64,000 nucleotides of DNA from Phallusia mammillata (Eukaryota): the NCBI GenBank assembly GCA_965637545.1, contig OZ281498.1, forward strand, positions 20,956,001-21,020,000, given 5' to 3'. Each line of letters starts with the position of its first letter. Position 1 is the stretch's first letter. Position numbers: made by a program. Below are positions 3,001-15,000 of the stretch, piece by piece.

Positions 3001-6000
3001 TACACTTAACGAAATACCACAGGGATTGCTGTAAGATTAGTTGGTATAATGCTTTCGAGGGAATATGCATGTCGCCTATTAGCATCTTAAGTTTCGTTAT
3101 AAGCGATGCATACATTCCTCCCTTGTTGCCCTAGTATGCTATTCGCTAAAAAGTAAAGTTTATTCTAAACTACGGACTATATAAAACAGGTTGGGTCTTA
3201 AATAAAACGAAGTTACACCACAAAGATGAACGTACACATTTTTTGAGTAATTAATAAAAATTAAAAGTCGAATTTTGCAAACTTGCTTGTATAACTGCTT
3301 AAAGAAAACGTTTAAACTTTTTGAAAACTGGTCCATACTTCTGTTTAAAACCAGATTTTTTGTTTTTGGATAAAGTACTTCATTTGAAAAAGTCAAAATA
3401 GTTGTCAAAACCGTATGTTTACAAATATATAGACTGTCAGAAGTTTCTTTTTAGAAGTTTAAAGAAGTTAAATAAATATTTAGCTGAATACTTCACCAAT
3501 CATTGTTCTGGAAACAGCTGAAACTGTTGCAGTAATTGTTCGTTGAACGATTTTCGAAGAAAGACAAGAACTGGTACTAACCAAGTTGGACATAACGTAA
3601 CATTAGGATAAAAATACTCAAAATTAACCATGATCCGTTATCAAGACGTCACATAGTAAATCTCAGAAAGAGTTTAAATCTAATCGAAACGTTATCATCT
3701 CGGAAATCAAGTTAGCATTAACTTATGATGTCACTAAACTGCTTGTTTTAAATAAATATGTAGTTATGACGTCATGTTTTTTGACGAAAAATTTTGTGAG
3801 CGCACTTATGCCCTGAAACAACGGGTCGTACAGTGACGTCACCATGTTTCAAACTTTAGTGTGTAACTGTTGCATAAATACTGTAATAAAGTGGTAAAAG
3901 TTAAAGCAAATACCTAATGTAGGTGTGCAGAAAAACTTCAGAAGTGTCATACAAAGCCAATTAATTCCCAAGAACGTAACTCGAATAACTTGATATAACC
4001 ACATTGCCCAATTGCAGATAGACAATTAATTTGCACATAGGTTAAAAGTACAGTTGATGTCAATTCGACTTCGAATAATGACATACCTTTTTATTTTTGT
4101 ATTTTATTTACTTTGTTGTTACCAATTTTTTATTTAAAGTTTATGATTTACTGGGTGGTTACAAATTTGGGCGAAAACGTGTCTTTTACGAAATATAAAT
4201 TTAATTCGGTAATTTTGACTGTAAATGCTTTATATCGAAGTGCTGTCAGATTTTGACAGACTAAGCGTTTTTTCGAAACAAAAAAGCCTTAACAAAGCAA
4301 TACGGGCGCTCACATACCAAAATGCCAAAACATGCGACAGCATCGTTACAGAAAATAGTCTGACTTCTGAGAAGACCGGACGGGGTCACAAAAGGCCAGA
4401 GCAGGTACAAAATATAGAATATATCCTGGATTGTAGGATGGGCTCAGTCAATGGATATGTAATGCAATCACGAATTGGGTTTACCGTGAAACGTTGTGAA
4501 CATAAAAATCCCCACTATGTAGACAATTTACAAACACCGTGCATGAATATGGAAATAGTTCCGGTAACAATACACGTTTTGGCGAAACTTATTTAAATTG
4601 GTCGTGAAAAAAATGGCTTGCTTGGAAGGATAAGCATTTCGCGTTAAAAAGTGGGTTTCTTAAAATGCGCAAAAAGCTTTTGTGTTAATACGTTATGCGT
4701 TATCGTCATGGCCAACACTATTTTTTTATTAGAATGAATAAAATACTACAGTCGAAAAAATGACTTTAAAAAATCTTCTTTAAAGTGACAAAGAACGTTT
4801 TTTTTTAAAGGATACTATCAATTGACACTAGACGAAGACTTTTGAAAGTTAATGGATAAAAAAATGCCAAAGAGACTAAATGTAGGTTGACTCGTTCCAG
4901 GCAAATAATATTAGTTGTATTTGTTTTTTTACATTGTGTTTTTTTACAATCTAATAAAAAAAACAACGATTGTTAAAACGTTTGCAAAGAATTTCTTTAT
5001 TATAATACATCTTTCTGGCAGTTTTGTTTTTAATCAATGTAACAGTTTTCACAGTAGGTGGTTGAATTAGTCAGCATATCGATCCGAAAATCAAGACGCC
5101 AATTAAATATCATCCAAACCCTGTGAATGCAAATAGGACACAGAAATAAAACGTTCAAACTAACACGTTCAGCTCGCAAACCAAGACTTCGTGTTGGGCT
5201 GTCTGTTTGCCGCAGGTAGCACACCACGTGACACCATCACGATTGTGACGTCATTATAGGGAGGAAAGAAGTGTCAGGCAAGAAAGAGACGATGGGTCGC
5301 TGCTACCTAGAGCATAATTGCAACGGCCTTTCGCAGTGCGGTTGTGTTTTGAATTCGTTATCAAATAGTTTTAATGTGGGACTATGGGATAACGGTTTAA
5401 ACTGCCACCTTCCGTTGAGAATTTGCGTGCAGCGTAGATGTATAGCGGTAACTATGTTTTATTTCAATAAAAAGACTCATTGCATCAGAGAGTAGACGTA
5501 TATCAGTTAGAATATAAATATTTTGGTTATAAACTTGAACGAAAAGTTAAACAAGTGCTAATTCTTAACTTTAGGGTAAGCGAAGTATGTTTAACTCAAT
5601 TAAAAGTTACTCAAAACTCAAAGCTTTTTTAACGAAGTAGTTTCTAAAAAAATATTTTACTGTACAGTTGAAGGGTTAGAGAAGTGAATTAGTAACCCGT
5701 ATATAGTTAACCATGAGGTCATCATTCGTTGCTACCTGCTGCCTGTTGCTATGCGCTGTGACATCATCAACAGCGCAGTTCGATCTGAATTTCAACATCG
5801 ACGATATGCTTGTTAAGGATTACCTCTTTTGGCGCGCCATTTTCTCAATCACGCAAAACACAGGTGAGTGTGTGTGACGTCACTATGGCGTTCAGTGACA
5901 TCATAGACTATGTGTTAAATAGAATGATGCAACACAAGGTATCCTTTGAAAAATCAAGGTGTACGGATATTTAAACGCGAAAAATTTGGGTCACAGAAAT

Positions 6001-12000: not shown

Positions 12001-15000
12001 TTTTTTCCCCACAAATATTATTTTCAAATATTTTACTTTGAATTTATTTTTGACAGCTATTTCTGACGAGTGTCCCCAAACTTGCCACAAAGACGGATTA
12101 TGTCTTCGATCCACCATCGGTTTCTCGCAATGCGTTTGCAAATTGGGATACGACGGCGACGGAATACGTCAATGCACACGTACGTATTTCATACTGTTAT
12201 ATTTGGTTCTATTTGAATAAGGAAAATGTGATGCTATCATAACACAAACTTGCTAAACATAAGTAAGTAAATAAATCTTTCTATTTCAAATATGTTTAAG
12301 GCACTTTCGCAAATGGTTTTAAAATGCATTTCAATACTTCATGGGTCCACCATTAAAAGACAATGTTTAACTAAGCGCTCATTGCAAAATGTCAATCTTG
12401 CATGTATGACCAATTTAAAAATACATTTAAGTGAAACTAGTCACTTTTTGCAGCCGATTCGCCAACAGTACTAAACACTGTTCCTCCCGTATCTGCTGTG
12501 TGCAATCCAACTTGTGGACAAAATGCATTTTGCAACGCCGGGCGGTGTCAATGCCTCGACAACCATGTTGGAAATGGATTTAACTGCGTTCGTAAGTACA
12601 ATACTTCTATTATTGATTAACAAGTGATGGAATACTGGTGTACGGGCCTTTTAAGAAAAAAATTACCATCAAACCAGTTTATCATTATGATTTGCTAGAA
12701 GCGCAAAGCCTATTTATATAAAAGTCTATTGATGTTTTGCATTACCATTTCGCTGAAGCTGTAATTATTATTTTTGCTTATTACTGTTTGTGGGACTTGT
12801 TTTGAAATAAATTGTTTTTTAATAATGTGCAAGGAAGTTTAACTAAACAAAACATTCAATTTTTTTAGCGCTTAGCTCGATCACTGACTTGGGTCCGCCA
12901 CCGTCAGAATGCAACCCTGATTGTACAGACAACGCTGAATGCGTAAAGTCCGATGACCGCTACGTATGTCAGTGCAAAAGCGGATACGTAGGCAACGGAA
13001 TAACCTGCCGAATCTGTGAGTCTAAAAAGGCTACCAAATATAAAATAACCATTTGTCTGACAAATCGTTGCAAAGATACCGAATTAGTATGAATAACAAG
13101 AACGTATTCCAGTGGTTTACAACCTTTGTAGTTCATGGTCCCATAAAGTAACCCTTAAGAGCCCGTTCTATCAAAAATGTAACAGGTAAACTTGTGAAAC
13201 CTAAAGTCATGGGTCATGTCGGTAATCACGACACCTTATTTAACACGAAAATGCCTAAAAAGGTAATTTTGACAACACGAAGGTGTTTAAGTTGGGTCCC
13301 TAAAACACCTGTATATAAATCACTGTCACTATATTTATTGTTGGCCGCCAGGAAACACTCCCTTTTGGGGGTCATAGGCTCCGGTTTGGAAACTCTGCCC
13401 TAAACGTTAAGGAAGATTTTTTAGCCATTGCCGTTTTATGATAATAGCTCTTTTGCCTGAGAGATCAATTAATATATGCCTGCTGGTTACATTGAAAGTA
13501 TACCTTGTTAATTTGTACTTTTTCTCTTTTACAGCCCCCAACGCAATAGCTGACCCAGTCGACCAACCCCAACCCCTACCGCCCCAAATAACACAGCCCC
13601 AGCCCCAACCCCAACCTCAAGCGGATCGAAACGACAACTGTGACGGTCGATGTCACGATAGAGGTTATTGTTTTACCTACAGGTCAAAATCAGAATGCCG
13701 ATGTCATCGTCCGTACACGGGAAATGGCTTTTACTGCTCCAGTAAGAAGAATTTATTTTGATGAAAGGCATAAAACGCCATACCTTATGACAGACCCACA
13801 TTTAGCTAATTTCGATAGGTAGCGCAAAAGCATTTTTACCCATTTAAAACGATATCTGTAAAAGTGATCACGGTTAGGACTTTTAGGGTCGGGGTAAAGT
13901 ATAAGCTTTAAAATTTGAATAAAGCTAGCAATGGAACTTAGTTCCTAATAGAAGTTTTTTAAAAACTTACATCCTAACCCTTTCCTTCTTCAGATGCTAA
14001 ATAAATAATTCAGCTCTTTGCGCTACCTCGAAAACTAGCTATAAATGTGGGTCTGCCGTGAAGTAAGGTGTGAGTAGCTCTACCTTATTTTGTAACCACT
14101 GTCAAAGAGTTGATGTAGTCTATTGGATTTTATAATGACAACTATACTTGACAATTTATTTATTTGGGTTAGCAAAATTTTCAGTACAAATTTTGTGAAT
14201 TTTATCGACGAATTTTGTTTTAATGTTTCGCAGACCAAATGGATTATAGATGCAGATCGGAAAATAATGGAGAAGGCTGTAAAGAAAGTGAAGTATGTCG
14301 ATTTAACGGATTTCGCTTCAGATGTTACATATGGCGTCGTCCTTTTTAAGGTACGTATAATGACACATTATAGACCTGTAAGTTTTATAAACATTTATGC
14401 TCCGCCAAATCAGTTCATGATCGTGAAAATAGCTACTTAAGAAAAAGTTACACAAAAAGAAGCAATGCGCTAAATCAGAGTGCTTTAAATTCTGGCCTGT
14501 AGCTTATGTGCGGCCCGCAAACACTTTTTACATACAATTATCAAATCAATTCAAGTAGCCACAGCCTAACGCTCATCATCACATTGCTGCTCAATGTGTA
14601 TCTCATTTAGTAATACTCTTTAGTTGTGAGAGTAGATTTTAAAGATTTTCGTTTTTAAATCTTTTCAAAACATGTTTGCAATTTTTTGAAATTTTAGAAA
14701 GCAGTTCCTGAAATTAAAAATCTCTTTTGGTTGCAGGATTTAAGGCAAGAAGTTGATACCAGTTCGTTTGTTCCACTACATTTTGTTGTACATTTGTCTG
14801 GATTTTCTGAAGGGCATCTCTCCGTCACTTAATTTGTGTGTATTTATGTATGTGGAGATGCACAAATAAATAAATAATAAACGAAAAAATCGTTGTGGCT
14901 GTTAGCAAAGATGATGAAACAGTTTTGGCCATTTAGTTTTCAGTATTTTAATATTTTTTTAATATTGTATTTTAATATATGCTCAATAGACAAATACGGT

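What the first reader, a model, noticed from the sequence alone, without database searches (positions are those of the whole stretch)
5713..14349. Orphan secreted protein built from 12 EGF modules, one per symmetric exon, with no anchor or partner domain
Seen: signal peptide, a short unique segment starting with Gln, then 12 EGF_3-like repeats separated by Pro/Thr-rich linkers (including a QP repeat) and a basic, aromatic tail. There is no transmembrane, ZP, vWF or enzyme domain, and mostly no calcium-binding EGF consensus. Established: EGF-array secreted proteins act as structural or recognition molecules in marine invertebrates, for example mussel adhesive plaque protein Mfp-2 and the ascidian vitelline-coat sperm receptor HrVC70, whose precursor also has a ZP domain that is absent here. 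Inference: a lineage-specific tunic, adhesive, mucus or gamete-recognition protein. Because every module exon is phase 1-1, any subset can be skipped or duplicated in frame, giving combinatorial isoforms or length polymorphism.
Basis: partly seen in the sequence, partly recalled or inferred. Interest (0 to 1): 0.65.

Follow-up and report, generated by a model that had tools for sequence, protein, structure and literature searches.

The report
Secreted 12-EGF-repeat protein gene, sea squirt
This is an intact sea-squirt (Phallusia) gene for a secreted protein made of a signal peptide, twelve ordinary non-calcium-binding EGF modules and a small cysteine-containing tail; it is a new but unremarkable member of a very common class of extracellular proteins.

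Summary
Window 5713-14349 (+) carries a 14-exon gene. All 13 introns are GT..AG, and all 12 internal exons are phase 1-1, each encoding one six-cysteine EGF module. Exon 1 is a signal peptide plus a 29-residue unique segment starting with Gln. Exon 13 carries a QP-rich linker. Exon 14 is a basic, aromatic, 4-Cys tail ending in TAA.

No ZP, vWF, TM or enzyme domain lies in or around the gene. IFT88 starts 1.26 kb downstream. No module reaches the calcium-binding EGF cut-off.

The neighbouring IFT88 is 98% identical to Phallusia mammillata IFT88, so the window is from an ascidian.

The modules are generic EGF_3. A profile of them hits 11,824 proteins from jellyfish to lungfish at about 45-50% identity, with no colinear ortholog. 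The unique N-terminus and tail found nothing.

Symmetric phase 1-1 exons are the normal state of EGF modules, not evidence of combinatorial splicing. The function (egg coat, tunic or signalling) is untested.

Verdict: a real gene and a new member of a known kind. Interest is low.

The parts
5713..5775 (+). Start codon and predicted signal peptide (residues 1-21, MRSS...SSTA)
   Evidence: It holds the only hydrophobic stretch of the gene (KD 2.05). Small residues sit at -3 and -1 before Gln22 (read; the -3/-1 rule is recalled). No SignalP run was possible.
5776..5863 (+). Unique N-terminal segment of the mature protein, starting with Gln (rest of exon 1, ends in phase 1)
   Evidence: Found, with no Pfam family. 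Nothing was found, 0 of 150 profile hits match it, and the Atlas gave no usable hit.
7508..7672 (+). Exon 2, EGF module 1 with a 17-residue Pro/Thr/Val-rich leader
   Evidence: Phase 1-1. EGF_3 32.8 bits. AlphaFold model with pLDDT 76.5 and two beta-hairpins. The best Foldseek matches are all EGF domains.
7786..7923 (+). Exon 3, EGF module 2 (C1-C2 spacing 2 instead of 3)
   Evidence: EGF_3 28.8 bits.
8372..8497 (+). Exon 4, EGF module 3
   Evidence: EGF_3 36.5 bits. It belongs to the related subgroup of exons 4, 6, 7 and 8, with 57-77% DNA identity among them.
9001..9141 (+). Exon 5, EGF module 4 (most divergent; GFEPDG instead of GxxGNG)
   Evidence: EGF_3 19.7 bits and EGF_MSP1_1 20.9 bits, both below their cut-offs. 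The six Cys are in register.
9676..9816 (+). Exon 6, EGF module 5
   Evidence: EGF_3 36.3 bits.
10504..10644 (+). Exon 7, EGF module 6
   Evidence: EGF_3 34.1 bits.
11110..11238 (+). Exon 8, EGF module 7
   Evidence: EGF_3 34.1 bits.
11568..11687 (+). Exon 9, EGF module 8
   Evidence: EGF_3 24.6 bits, below the cut-off. The six Cys are in register.
12057..12179 (+). Exon 10, EGF module 9 (leader ISDE, the nearest approach to a Ca-binding start, but incomplete)
   Evidence: EGF_3 21.1 bits and EGF_CA 15.9 bits. Consensus test.
12454..12591 (+). Exon 11, EGF module 10 (short C3-C4 loop of 4 residues)
   Evidence: EGF_3 only 14.3 bits. The six Cys are in register.
12869..13015 (+). Exon 12, EGF module 11
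   Evidence: EGF_3 39.6 bits, the best of the twelve.
13535..13741 (+). Exon 13: a 34-residue Pro/Gln-rich linker (13537-13638; QP repeat about 13564-13620), then EGF module 12
   Evidence: EGF_3 20.3 bits. Nothing was found.
14234..14349 (+). Exon 14: basic, aromatic 4-Cys tail (C-x8-C-x5-C-x8-C) and the TAA stop at 14347-14349
   Evidence: No Pfam family. Not EGF by profile: 0.1 bits, and 489 of 1000 shuffles score as well. Single-sequence model with pLDDT 76.2, beta-rich, with no significant PDB fold match (best E 3.9).
14351..14736 (+). Possible 3'UTR intron (GTACGT directly after the stop; ttggttgcag acceptor). Consensus match only.
   Evidence: Sequence read. No transcript evidence.
14865..14881 (+). 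Cluster of three AATAAA poly(A) signals, 516-527 nt after the stop

Best explanation
This is an intact, selectively maintained protein-coding gene of a Phallusia-type ascidian.

Predicted product (inferred from the sequence). The product enters the secretory pathway, and the signal peptide is removed after Ala21. That leaves a protein of about 639 residues that begins with Gln. It consists of a short amphipathic, aromatic N-terminal segment, then twelve tandem non-calcium-binding EGF_3 modules, then a small cationic, aromatic 4-Cys end-piece. Each module should be locked by three disulfides. The modules are spaced by short Pro/Thr-rich (once Pro/Gln-rich) linkers that are likely O-glycosylated.

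Likely mode of action (inferred). The protein has no anchor, no polymerisation (ZP) domain and no catalytic domain. The most likely role is therefore an extended, protease-resistant, multivalent rod in an extracellular matrix or coat (egg coat, tunic or epithelial secretion). The EGF surfaces and the two distinct ends would bind other matrix or cell-surface molecules.

What is shown and what is not. Shown: gene structure, module identity, absence of other domains, purifying selection on modules, and a tunicate origin. Inferred: secretion, disulfide pattern, glycosylation, rod shape and a binding or scaffold role. Unknown: tissue and partners.
For: - Gene model: 13 of 13 canonical introns, 12 of 12 phase 1-1 module exons, and one open frame of 1983 nt.
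- Composition: exon GC 49.8% against 33.8% in introns.
- Selection: dN/dS is 0.25-0.46 in 5 of 6 pairs among the four most related modules. The sixth pair is saturated at synonymous sites. DNA similarity stops at the exon borders.
- Module identity: EGF_3 in 12 of 12 modules, with 7 above the cut-off. Six Cys are in register. The AlphaFold model of module 1 has pLDDT 76.5 and two hairpins. Its Foldseek matches are EGF domains of NELL1, Pfs25, thrombospondin, uromodulin and nidogen, with rmsd about 1.5 A over 33 columns. The PDB profile hits Notch, NELL, uromodulin and COMP EGFs.
- Secretion and lack of an anchor: the only hydrophobic stretch is N-terminal, and there is no C-terminal hydrophobic run.
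- No other domain: 0 of 95 + strand ORFs up- and downstream, 0 of 106 antisense or intronic ORFs and no relevant ORF among 82 long ORFs reach a Pfam cut-off other than the neighbouring genes.
- Gene end: IFT88 starts at 15607, after poly(A) signals at 14865-14881.
- Not calcium-binding: EGF_CA is below its cut-off in 12 of 12 modules. The N-terminal and hydroxylation consensus is met in 0 of 12 (the patterns are recalled).
- Precedent: secreted EGF-only proteins are already known in ascidians. Hemps has 4 EGF plus 3 Cys-rich repeats, and Ci-meta1 has 6 EGF plus 13 cbEGF (PMC3760835, passages read).
Against: - There is no transcript, protein or expression evidence of any kind.
- The protein, or at least its exons 1 and 13, is absent from a 5.8-billion-protein collection that does hold the Phallusia mammillata IFT88 encoded next door. 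So no transcript-derived record supports the model.
- Signal-peptide cleavage, glycosylation and disulfides are inferred from rules, not predicted by a dedicated tool.
- A scaffold or binding role is the default reading of any EGF array, and nothing specific to this gene supports it.
- Five of twelve modules score below the Pfam EGF_3 cut-off when taken alone.
Confidence: 0.6

Rival explanations
1. It is a ZP-less relative of the ascidian vitelline-coat sperm receptor (HrVC70 type). On this reading the 12-EGF array is secreted directly by oocyte or follicle cells, is held on the egg coat by binding to ZP proteins, and serves in sperm binding or self/non-self discrimination.
For: [quoted passage not shown] HrVC70 binds the ZP proteins HrVLP-1 and -2. 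HaVC80 differs by one duplicated EGF (PMC9265791, passages).
- The gene here also has a signal peptide, exactly 12 EGF modules and a Cys-containing end-piece, in 660 residues.
- The organism is an ascidian.
Against: - No ZP domain lies anywhere near the gene.
- The tail does not match the EGF profile (0.1 bits; 489 of 1000 shuffles score as well) or any EGF fold. The 'incomplete 13th EGF' parallel therefore fails.
- None of the 66 profile hits scanned (of the best 150) carries a Zona_pellucida domain. The modules are no closer to tunicate proteins (summed score 491) than to lungfish (489) or jellyfish (476) proteins.
- The phlebobranch counterpart CiVC57 has vWF + 24 EGF + ZP + TM, which is a different architecture.
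- The match in repeat number may be a coincidence.
Confidence: 0.1
2. It is a diffusible signalling protein of the Hemps / Ci-meta1 kind. These are EGF-only secreted factors released from larval anterior tissue that act in settlement and metamorphosis.
For: Hemps and Ci-meta1 are secreted ascidian proteins built only of EGF-type repeats, and Hemps has no ortholog in Ciona. Such genes are therefore lineage-specific (PMC3760835, passages). The protein here has the same general make-up: signal peptide, EGF repeats, no anchor.
Against: The architecture differs. Hemps has 4 EGF plus 3 novel Cys-rich repeats. Ci-meta1 has 13 calcium-binding EGFs, and this protein has none. No sequence comparison was possible and there are no expression data. 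Twelve glycosylated-linker modules look more like a structural rod than a ligand (inference).
Confidence: 0.1
3. The model is incomplete. In vivo the EGF array would be part of a longer transcript that skips or reads around the exon 14 stop and joins a further domain or anchor, or that uses upstream exons.
For: A good donor-like site (GTACGT) lies immediately after the stop, with a good acceptor at 14736. No transcript data were available to fix the 3' end.
Against: - The stop is in frame before that donor.
- Joining exon 13 in phase 1 to the 14737 acceptor gives a stop after 5 codons (read).
- No domain is present in 95 + strand ORFs of at least 30 aa within 7 kb downstream or 5.7 kb upstream.
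- IFT88, with its own ATG at 15607 and 98% identity over residues 1-600, fills the next 3 kb.
- The signal peptide sits right at the first ATG after an upstream stop.
Confidence: 0.07
4. It is a silent or decaying gene copy with no current function.
For: No matching protein record was found, and there are no expression data.
Against: The frame is open through 14 exons and all splice sites are canonical. dN/dS is below 0.5 between modules whose synonymous sites have diverged by 0.5-1.2. All 72 module cysteines are retained. Exon and intron GC differ strongly.
Confidence: 0.05

Closest known systems
HrVC70 / HrVC120 (Halocynthia roretzi vitelline-coat sperm receptor) and HaVC80
   Same: An ascidian protein with a signal peptide and exactly 12 tandem EGF-like repeats, of about 660-670 residues up to the end of the array. 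The repeat number changes by single-repeat duplication between species (PMC9265791, passages).
   Different: The precursor there carries an incomplete 13th EGF and a ZP domain and is released by proteolysis. Here there is no ZP domain, and the end-piece is not EGF-like. Sequences could not be compared. The two primary PNAS papers are not held.
Hemps (Herdmania) and Ci-meta1 (Ciona): secreted EGF-only metamorphosis proteins
   Same: Secreted ascidian proteins composed only of EGF-type repeats, without an anchor or enzyme domain, and lineage-restricted (PMC3760835, passages).
   Different: Hemps has 4 EGF plus 3 novel Cys-rich repeats. Ci-meta1 has 6 EGF plus 13 calcium-binding EGF. Here there are 12 non-calcium-binding EGF_3 modules plus a 4-Cys tail. 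No sequence comparison was made.
Nidogen rod region (EGF_3 arrays with few calcium-binding modules)
   Same: Among the profile hits scanned, the nidogen-type proteins are the ones whose EGF arrays are EGF_3-rich and EGF_CA-poor, as here. They carry NIDO/G2F/Ldl_recept_b (for example P0035, whose cluster holds a record named 'Nidogen-1', and P0096, P0113, P0124, P0140). A nidogen G2-adjacent EGF is among the fold matches.
   Different: No NIDO, G2F or LDL-receptor YWTD domain is present in the window. The match is not colinear.
Styela clava uncharacterised EGF-array proteins LOC144420858 (P0009, 2255 aa) and LOC120343292 (P0102, 1121 aa)
   Same: Tunicate proteins in which Pfam finds essentially only EGF-type families at E <= 1e-5; P0009 also has a borderline Tissue_fac match (27.0 bits, at its cut-off of 27). 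They give the best per-exon matches for modules 5-7, at 56-65% identity.
   Different: They are much longer and rich in calcium-binding EGF (EGF_CA 597 and 319 bits). The best matches of different exons pile onto the same few positions, so the proteins are not colinear. Neither matches exon 1 or exon 14.
Mussel plaque protein Mfp-2
   Same: A secreted invertebrate protein made almost entirely of tandem EGF-like repeats (recalled; only a reference title and a passing mention were seen in PMC9314366).
   Different: The DOPA-based adhesive chemistry cannot be read from DNA. Tyr is 3.9% and Lys 1.7% of exons 2-14, which is not a distinctive adhesive composition. The phylum is different and no homology beyond the EGF fold was tested.

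Membership tests
EGF-like domain, EGF_3 type (Pfam PF12947) | Six cysteines in the EGF register | tested here: met
   12 of 12 modules have six Cys with spacing 3(2)/5/4-11/1/10(11).
EGF-like domain, EGF_3 type (Pfam PF12947) | Score at or above Pfam's curated cut-off (28.5 bits) | tested here: met
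   7 of 12 modules taken singly score 28.8-39.6 bits. The other 5 score 14.3-24.6 bits. EGF_3 is listed for all 12.
EGF-like domain, EGF_3 type (Pfam PF12947) | EGF fold (two small beta-hairpins) | tested here: met
   The AlphaFold model of module 1 has pLDDT 76.5 and strands at 26-30 and 38-42. The top Foldseek hits are EGF domains, but 0 of 210 have E <= 0.001 because the domain is so small.
Calcium-binding EGF (Pfam PF07645) | Pfam cut-off of 27 bits; the [DN]-x-[DN]-[EQ]-C start and the C-x-[DN]-x4-[FY]-x-C loop (patterns recalled) | tested here: not met
   0 of 12 modules reach the cut-off (best 23.8 bits). 0 of 12 have either motif.
HrVC70/HrVC120 vitelline-coat family | 12 EGF-like repeats after a signal peptide | tested here: met
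   The family description comes from PMC9265791.
HrVC70/HrVC120 vitelline-coat family | C-terminal ZP domain in the precursor | tested here: not met
   No Zona_pellucida match in 82 + 95 + 106 ORFs. IFT88 follows at 15607.
HrVC70/HrVC120 vitelline-coat family | Incomplete 13th EGF after the array | tested here: not met
   The tail scores 0.1 bits against the module profile, and 489 of 1000 shuffles do as well. It has no EGF fold match. Only a C-x5-C spacing is shared.
HrVC70/HrVC120 vitelline-coat family | Sequence orthology; gonad expression; location on the vitelline coat; high allelic polymorphism | not testable with these tools
   No HrVC120 sequence, transcript data or second allele was available. 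The primary papers are not held.
CiVC57 (Ciona vitelline coat) | vWF domain + 24 EGF + ZP + transmembrane domain (PMC9265791, PMC8849226) | tested here: not met
   There are 12 EGF modules only. No vWF or ZP domain was found, and there is no hydrophobic segment beyond the signal peptide.
Nidogen | NIDO, G2F and LDL-receptor class B repeats flanking the EGF rod | tested here: not met
   None was found in the window.
Hemps / Ci-meta1 | Secreted, EGF repeats only | tested here: met
Hemps / Ci-meta1 | Specific repeat make-up (4 EGF + 3 novel Cys repeats, or 6 EGF + 13 cbEGF); papilla or anterior expression at metamorphosis | tested here: not met
   The make-up differs: 12 non-calcium-binding EGF plus a 4-Cys tail. 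Expression is not testable and the sequences were not compared.
Mfp-2-type adhesive | DOPA modification of Tyr; byssal or adhesive-gland expression | not testable with these tools
   Only composition could be read: Tyr 3.9%, Lys 1.7%.

The most novel reading that the evidence does not exclude
The gene encodes a 'ready-made' VC70: a vitelline-coat sperm-binding or allorecognition EGF array. In the Phallusia lineage it would have been uncoupled from its ZP anchor, so that it is secreted directly rather than cut from a ZP precursor. It would dock on the coat through its distinct N- and C-terminal end-pieces. Repeat number and surface loops would be free to vary by in-frame exon gain or loss.
Probability: 0.08. 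Interest if true: 0.55.

Novelty: new member of a known kind. Interest (0 to 1): 0.2.

Why it matters
If expressed, this adds one more lineage-restricted, EGF-only secreted protein to the ascidian extracellular repertoire. It also gives a clean textbook example of one module per phase 1-1 exon. It would matter more only if it turned out to sit on the egg coat. A ZP-less 12-EGF protein there would bear on how ascidian sperm receptors and self-sterility molecules evolve. As it stands, it opens no long-standing question, and a specialist would not be surprised by it.

Tried and rejected
1. Ortholog hunt with the unique parts. Exon 13 and exon 1 were searched against longer proteins among 5.8 billion and found nothing. 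Exons 1 and 14 match 0 of the 150 best profile hits. The ESM Atlas gave no usable hit for exon 1.

2. Colinearity test for a one-to-one ortholog among the 150 best profile hits. None was found.

3. Search for ZP-bearing relatives. Pfam was run on 66 of the 150 hits:
   - 28 hits, which were all those of 1000 aa or less;
   - 20 hits, 15 of them of about 1040-1290 aa with 11-14 repeats and 5 (1124-2255 aa) taken as top per-exon scorers;
   - 18 hits of 2000 aa or less with a 230-520 aa non-EGF C-terminus.
   No hit has Zona_pellucida and one has CUT_N. The other 84 hits were not scanned.

4. 'The tail is a truncated EGF'. Rejected.

5. Nested or antisense genes, tRNA or other RNA genes inside the locus. 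None was found.

6. Homology between introns as a sign of recent tandem duplication. None: repeats stop at the exon borders.

7. The primary HrVC70 papers (PMC524827, PMC122171) are not held. The paper on the phenol oxidase Tuphoxin, a tunic/blood-cell protein (PMC9395347), concerns a different cbEGF-TSP1-tyrosinase protein and is irrelevant here.

All searches were exon by exon.

9. The bacterial/archaeal genome, phage, plasmid and E. coli collections were not used, because they cannot hold a tunicate gene.

Full report
WHAT IS THERE

The window has no N and is AT-rich (about 30-39% GC). Between 5713 and 14349 on the + strand I read a 14-exon gene and checked it by script.
- Exon 1 is 5713-5863.
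- Twelve internal exons begin at 7508, 7786, 8372, 9001, 9676, 10504, 11110, 11568, 12057, 12454, 12869 and 13535.
- The last exon is 14234-14349 and ends in TAA.
- All 13 introns (113-1644 nt) begin GT and end AG behind pyrimidine tracts.
- All 12 internal exons are multiples of three and are entered and left in phase 1.
- The exon lengths sum to 1983 nt, or 660 codons plus the stop.
- Exons are 49.8% GC and introns 33.8%.

Every search below was made exon by exon. The 13 junction codons were not evaluated.

THE MODULES

Each internal exon encodes one six-cysteine module with spacing C-x3-C-x5-C-x(4-11)-C-x-C-x10-C. Module 2 has x2 at the first gap and module 9 has x11 at the last. The C5-C6 loop carries G-[FY]-x-G-[ND]-G.

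Pfam, run on single exons, gave these results:
- EGF_3 is listed for 12 of 12 modules, is the top family in 9 of 12, and is above the curated cut-off in 7 of 12.
- EGF_CA reaches its cut-off in 0 of 12.
- Exons 1 and 14 match nothing.

Recalled consensus patterns for calcium binding, Asp/Asn hydroxylation, O-fucose and O-glucose are each met in 0 of 12 modules.

A profile made from the twelve finds exactly twelve hits in the six-frame window, and the next best has E 0.27. That is circular for the twelve themselves, but it shows there is no thirteenth module and no paralogue elsewhere in the 64 kb.

An AlphaFold model of module 1, using the other eleven as its alignment, has mean pLDDT 76.5 and two hairpins. 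Its best PDB matches are all EGF domains: NELL1, Pfs25, thrombospondin, MSP1-19, uromodulin and nidogen. None is at E <= 0.001, as expected for 35 residues.

THE ENDS

Exon 1 holds the only hydrophobic stretch of the gene. It ends TSSTA|QF, so the mature protein would start with Gln22. This is a rule-of-thumb reading, since no SignalP run was possible. A 29-residue aromatic, acidic segment follows, with no relatives.

The exon 13 linker is 34 residues of Pro/Gln, including the QP repeat. The other linkers are 4-17 residues and rich in Pro, Thr and Val.

It also holds four Cys (C-x8-C-x5-C-x8-C). I tested whether it is a truncated EGF, which would mirror the 'incomplete EGF' of HrVC120:
- It scores 0.1 bits against the module profile, and 489 of 1000 shuffles score as well.
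- A single-sequence model is beta-rich at pLDDT 76.2.
- That model has no significant fold match (best E 3.9).

It is therefore a small end-piece of unknown fold.

THE GENE IS UNDER CONSTRAINT

The four most similar modules (exons 4, 6, 7, 8) share 57-77% DNA identity in the Cys-to-Cys core. They give dN/dS of 0.25-0.46 in 5 of 6 pairs at dS 0.5-1.2, and the sixth pair is saturated. DNA similarity ends at the exon borders and the introns are unrelated. The duplications are therefore old and the coding parts have been conserved since.

SURROUNDINGS

Pfam scans of ORFs found no ZP, vWF, transmembrane-associated or enzyme domain:
- 82 of the 86 ORFs of at least 85 aa on both strands of the whole window; the 4 left out are + strand frames that overlap module exons;
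- 95 + strand ORFs of at least 30 aa in 1-5750 and 14300-21500;
- 106 antisense or intronic ORFs of at least 40 aa in 1-15600.

The next gene downstream on the same strand is IFT88. Its ATG is at 15607 and its four coding pieces run to 18627. It lies after a cluster of three AATAAA signals at 14865-14881.

A donor-like GTACGT directly after the stop and an acceptor at 14736 could mark a 3'UTR intron. This rests on consensus only.

Further on lie a BIG1/2-type Sec7 ARF-GEF gene on the - strand (about 21.4-35.5 kb) and a weak SBF-like ORF near 54.4-54.8 kb.

ORGANISM

The 619-aa IFT88 ORF is 98% identical to a UniRef record named for Phallusia mammillata. It is 78% identical to Ciona intestinalis, 75% to Clavelina and 69% to Styela.

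RELATIVES

A profile of the twelve modules, run against 1.84 billion representatives, gave 11,824 hits at E <= 0.001 and 412 at E <= 1e-30. The best 150 are mostly long proteins with 8-67 repeats.

Names recovered for ten of them are:
- fibrillin-like (a jellyfish and a lungfish);
- two uncharacterised Styela clava proteins;
- nidogen-1 (a sea cucumber; the name comes from another member of the cluster of P0035);
- nematode EGF-domain proteins;
- an unnamed product of the annelid Owenia; one further hit has no named source.

Single exons match these at roughly 45-70% identity. The summed scores are the same for tunicate (491), lungfish (489) and jellyfish (476) proteins, and the best-match positions are not colinear. 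So the modules are generic, and no one-to-one ortholog is among these hits.

Partner domains in the 66 hits I scanned are highly varied: NIDO/G2F/LDL-B, GAIN/7tm_2, C-lectin, kringle, trypsin, astacin, CUB, fn3, TSP1 and fibrinogen. Several hits are EGF-only. None has a Zona_pellucida domain and one has CUT_N. The other 84 of the 150 were not scanned.

Exon 1 and exon 13 found nothing among 5.8 billion proteins. The protein is therefore not in that collection, although its neighbour's product is.

COMPARISON WITH KNOWN ASCIDIAN PROTEINS

These descriptions come from passages read in reviews.
- HrVC120 is signal peptide + 12 EGF + an incomplete EGF + ZP, cleaved after Arg668 to give HrVC70.
- HaVC80 has 13 EGF repeats through duplication of one repeat.
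- CiVC57 is vWF + 24 EGF + ZP + TM.
- Hemps (4 EGF + 3 Cys-rich repeats) and Ci-meta1 (6 EGF + 13 cbEGF) are secreted EGF-only proteins.

The present protein shares the '12 EGF after a signal peptide' count with HrVC70. It fails the ZP and incomplete-EGF features. It shares the 'secreted, EGF only' design with Hemps and Ci-meta1 but not their repeat make-up. I could not obtain any of these sequences, so homology beyond the EGF fold is untested.

HOW IT MOST LIKELY WORKS

Shown: an intact, constrained gene; EGF_3 modules; no anchor, polymeriser or enzyme domain.

Inferred: it is secreted. Each module carries three disulfides and the tail may form two, giving 76 Cys in the mature protein outside the junction codons. 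The Pro/Thr linkers are O-glycosylated. The whole protein is an extended multivalent rod whose module surfaces and two dissimilar ends bind other extracellular molecules in a coat or matrix.

I put 0.6 on this general reading. I put about 0.1 each on an egg-coat VC70-like role and a Hemps-like signalling role. I put less on an incomplete model (0.07) or a dead gene (0.05).

ON THE ISOFORM IDEA

Any subset of phase 1-1 exons can indeed be skipped in frame. However, this symmetry is the normal legacy of exon shuffling for EGF modules (recalled, established). All splice sites here look constitutive and no transcripts were available. The one relevant fact is that HaVC80 differs from HrVC70 by a single repeat. 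That shows repeat number drifts between species in such genes. It does not show that isoforms are made.

VERDICT

The gene is a new member of a known kind, of low interest unless it proves to be an egg-coat protein.

Noticed in passing
window 5776-14346 (mature coding parts, exon by exon): There is no N-x-[ST] glycosylation sequon among 47 Asn. Residue shuffles within exons give a mean of 5.9 sequons, and only 0.12% of 5000 shuffles give zero. Caveats: many Asn sit in the conserved xNA and GNG motifs, and the junction codons were not evaluated.
   Followed up: partly
window 15607-18627 (+): IFT88 gene with a 600-codon first coding exon. It is 98% identical to the Phallusia mammillata record and 78% to Ciona intestinalis. 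Its ATG lies only about 725 nt after the EGF gene's poly(A) signals.
   Followed up: yes
window ~21400-35500 (-): Exons of a BIG1/BIG2-type Sec7 ARF-GEF gene, with matches to Sec7, Sec7-like HUS/HDS and BIG2_C.
   Followed up: no
window 31769-31844 (-) and 10211-10249 (+): A tRNA-Ser(GGA) gene lies within the span of the ARF-GEF gene. Intron 6 of the EGF gene holds a 39-nt fragment that is 87% identical to that tRNA, in the opposite orientation. Beside it is a 61-nt stretch repeated at 36308-36367. This looks like a tRNA-derived SINE remnant.
   Followed up: partly
window 6762-6952 and 63017-63195: A 191-nt interspersed repeat (84% identity). One copy lies in intron 1 of the EGF gene.
   Followed up: no
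window 13775-13804 / 14042-14071: A 30-nt inverted repeat (80% complementary, arms 237 nt apart) in intron 13, which may be a MITE-like element.
   Followed up: no
window 7510-7518 and 14332-14340: The motif Arg-Arg-Pro occurs both at the very start of the array (first residues of exon 2) and four residues before the C-terminus. It may be a processing or recognition motif, or a coincidence.
   Followed up: no
window 54419-54769 (-): An ORF with a weak match to the sodium/bile-acid symporter family (SBF, 22.0 bits, below its cut-off of 24.3). It may be an exon of another gene.
   Followed up: no
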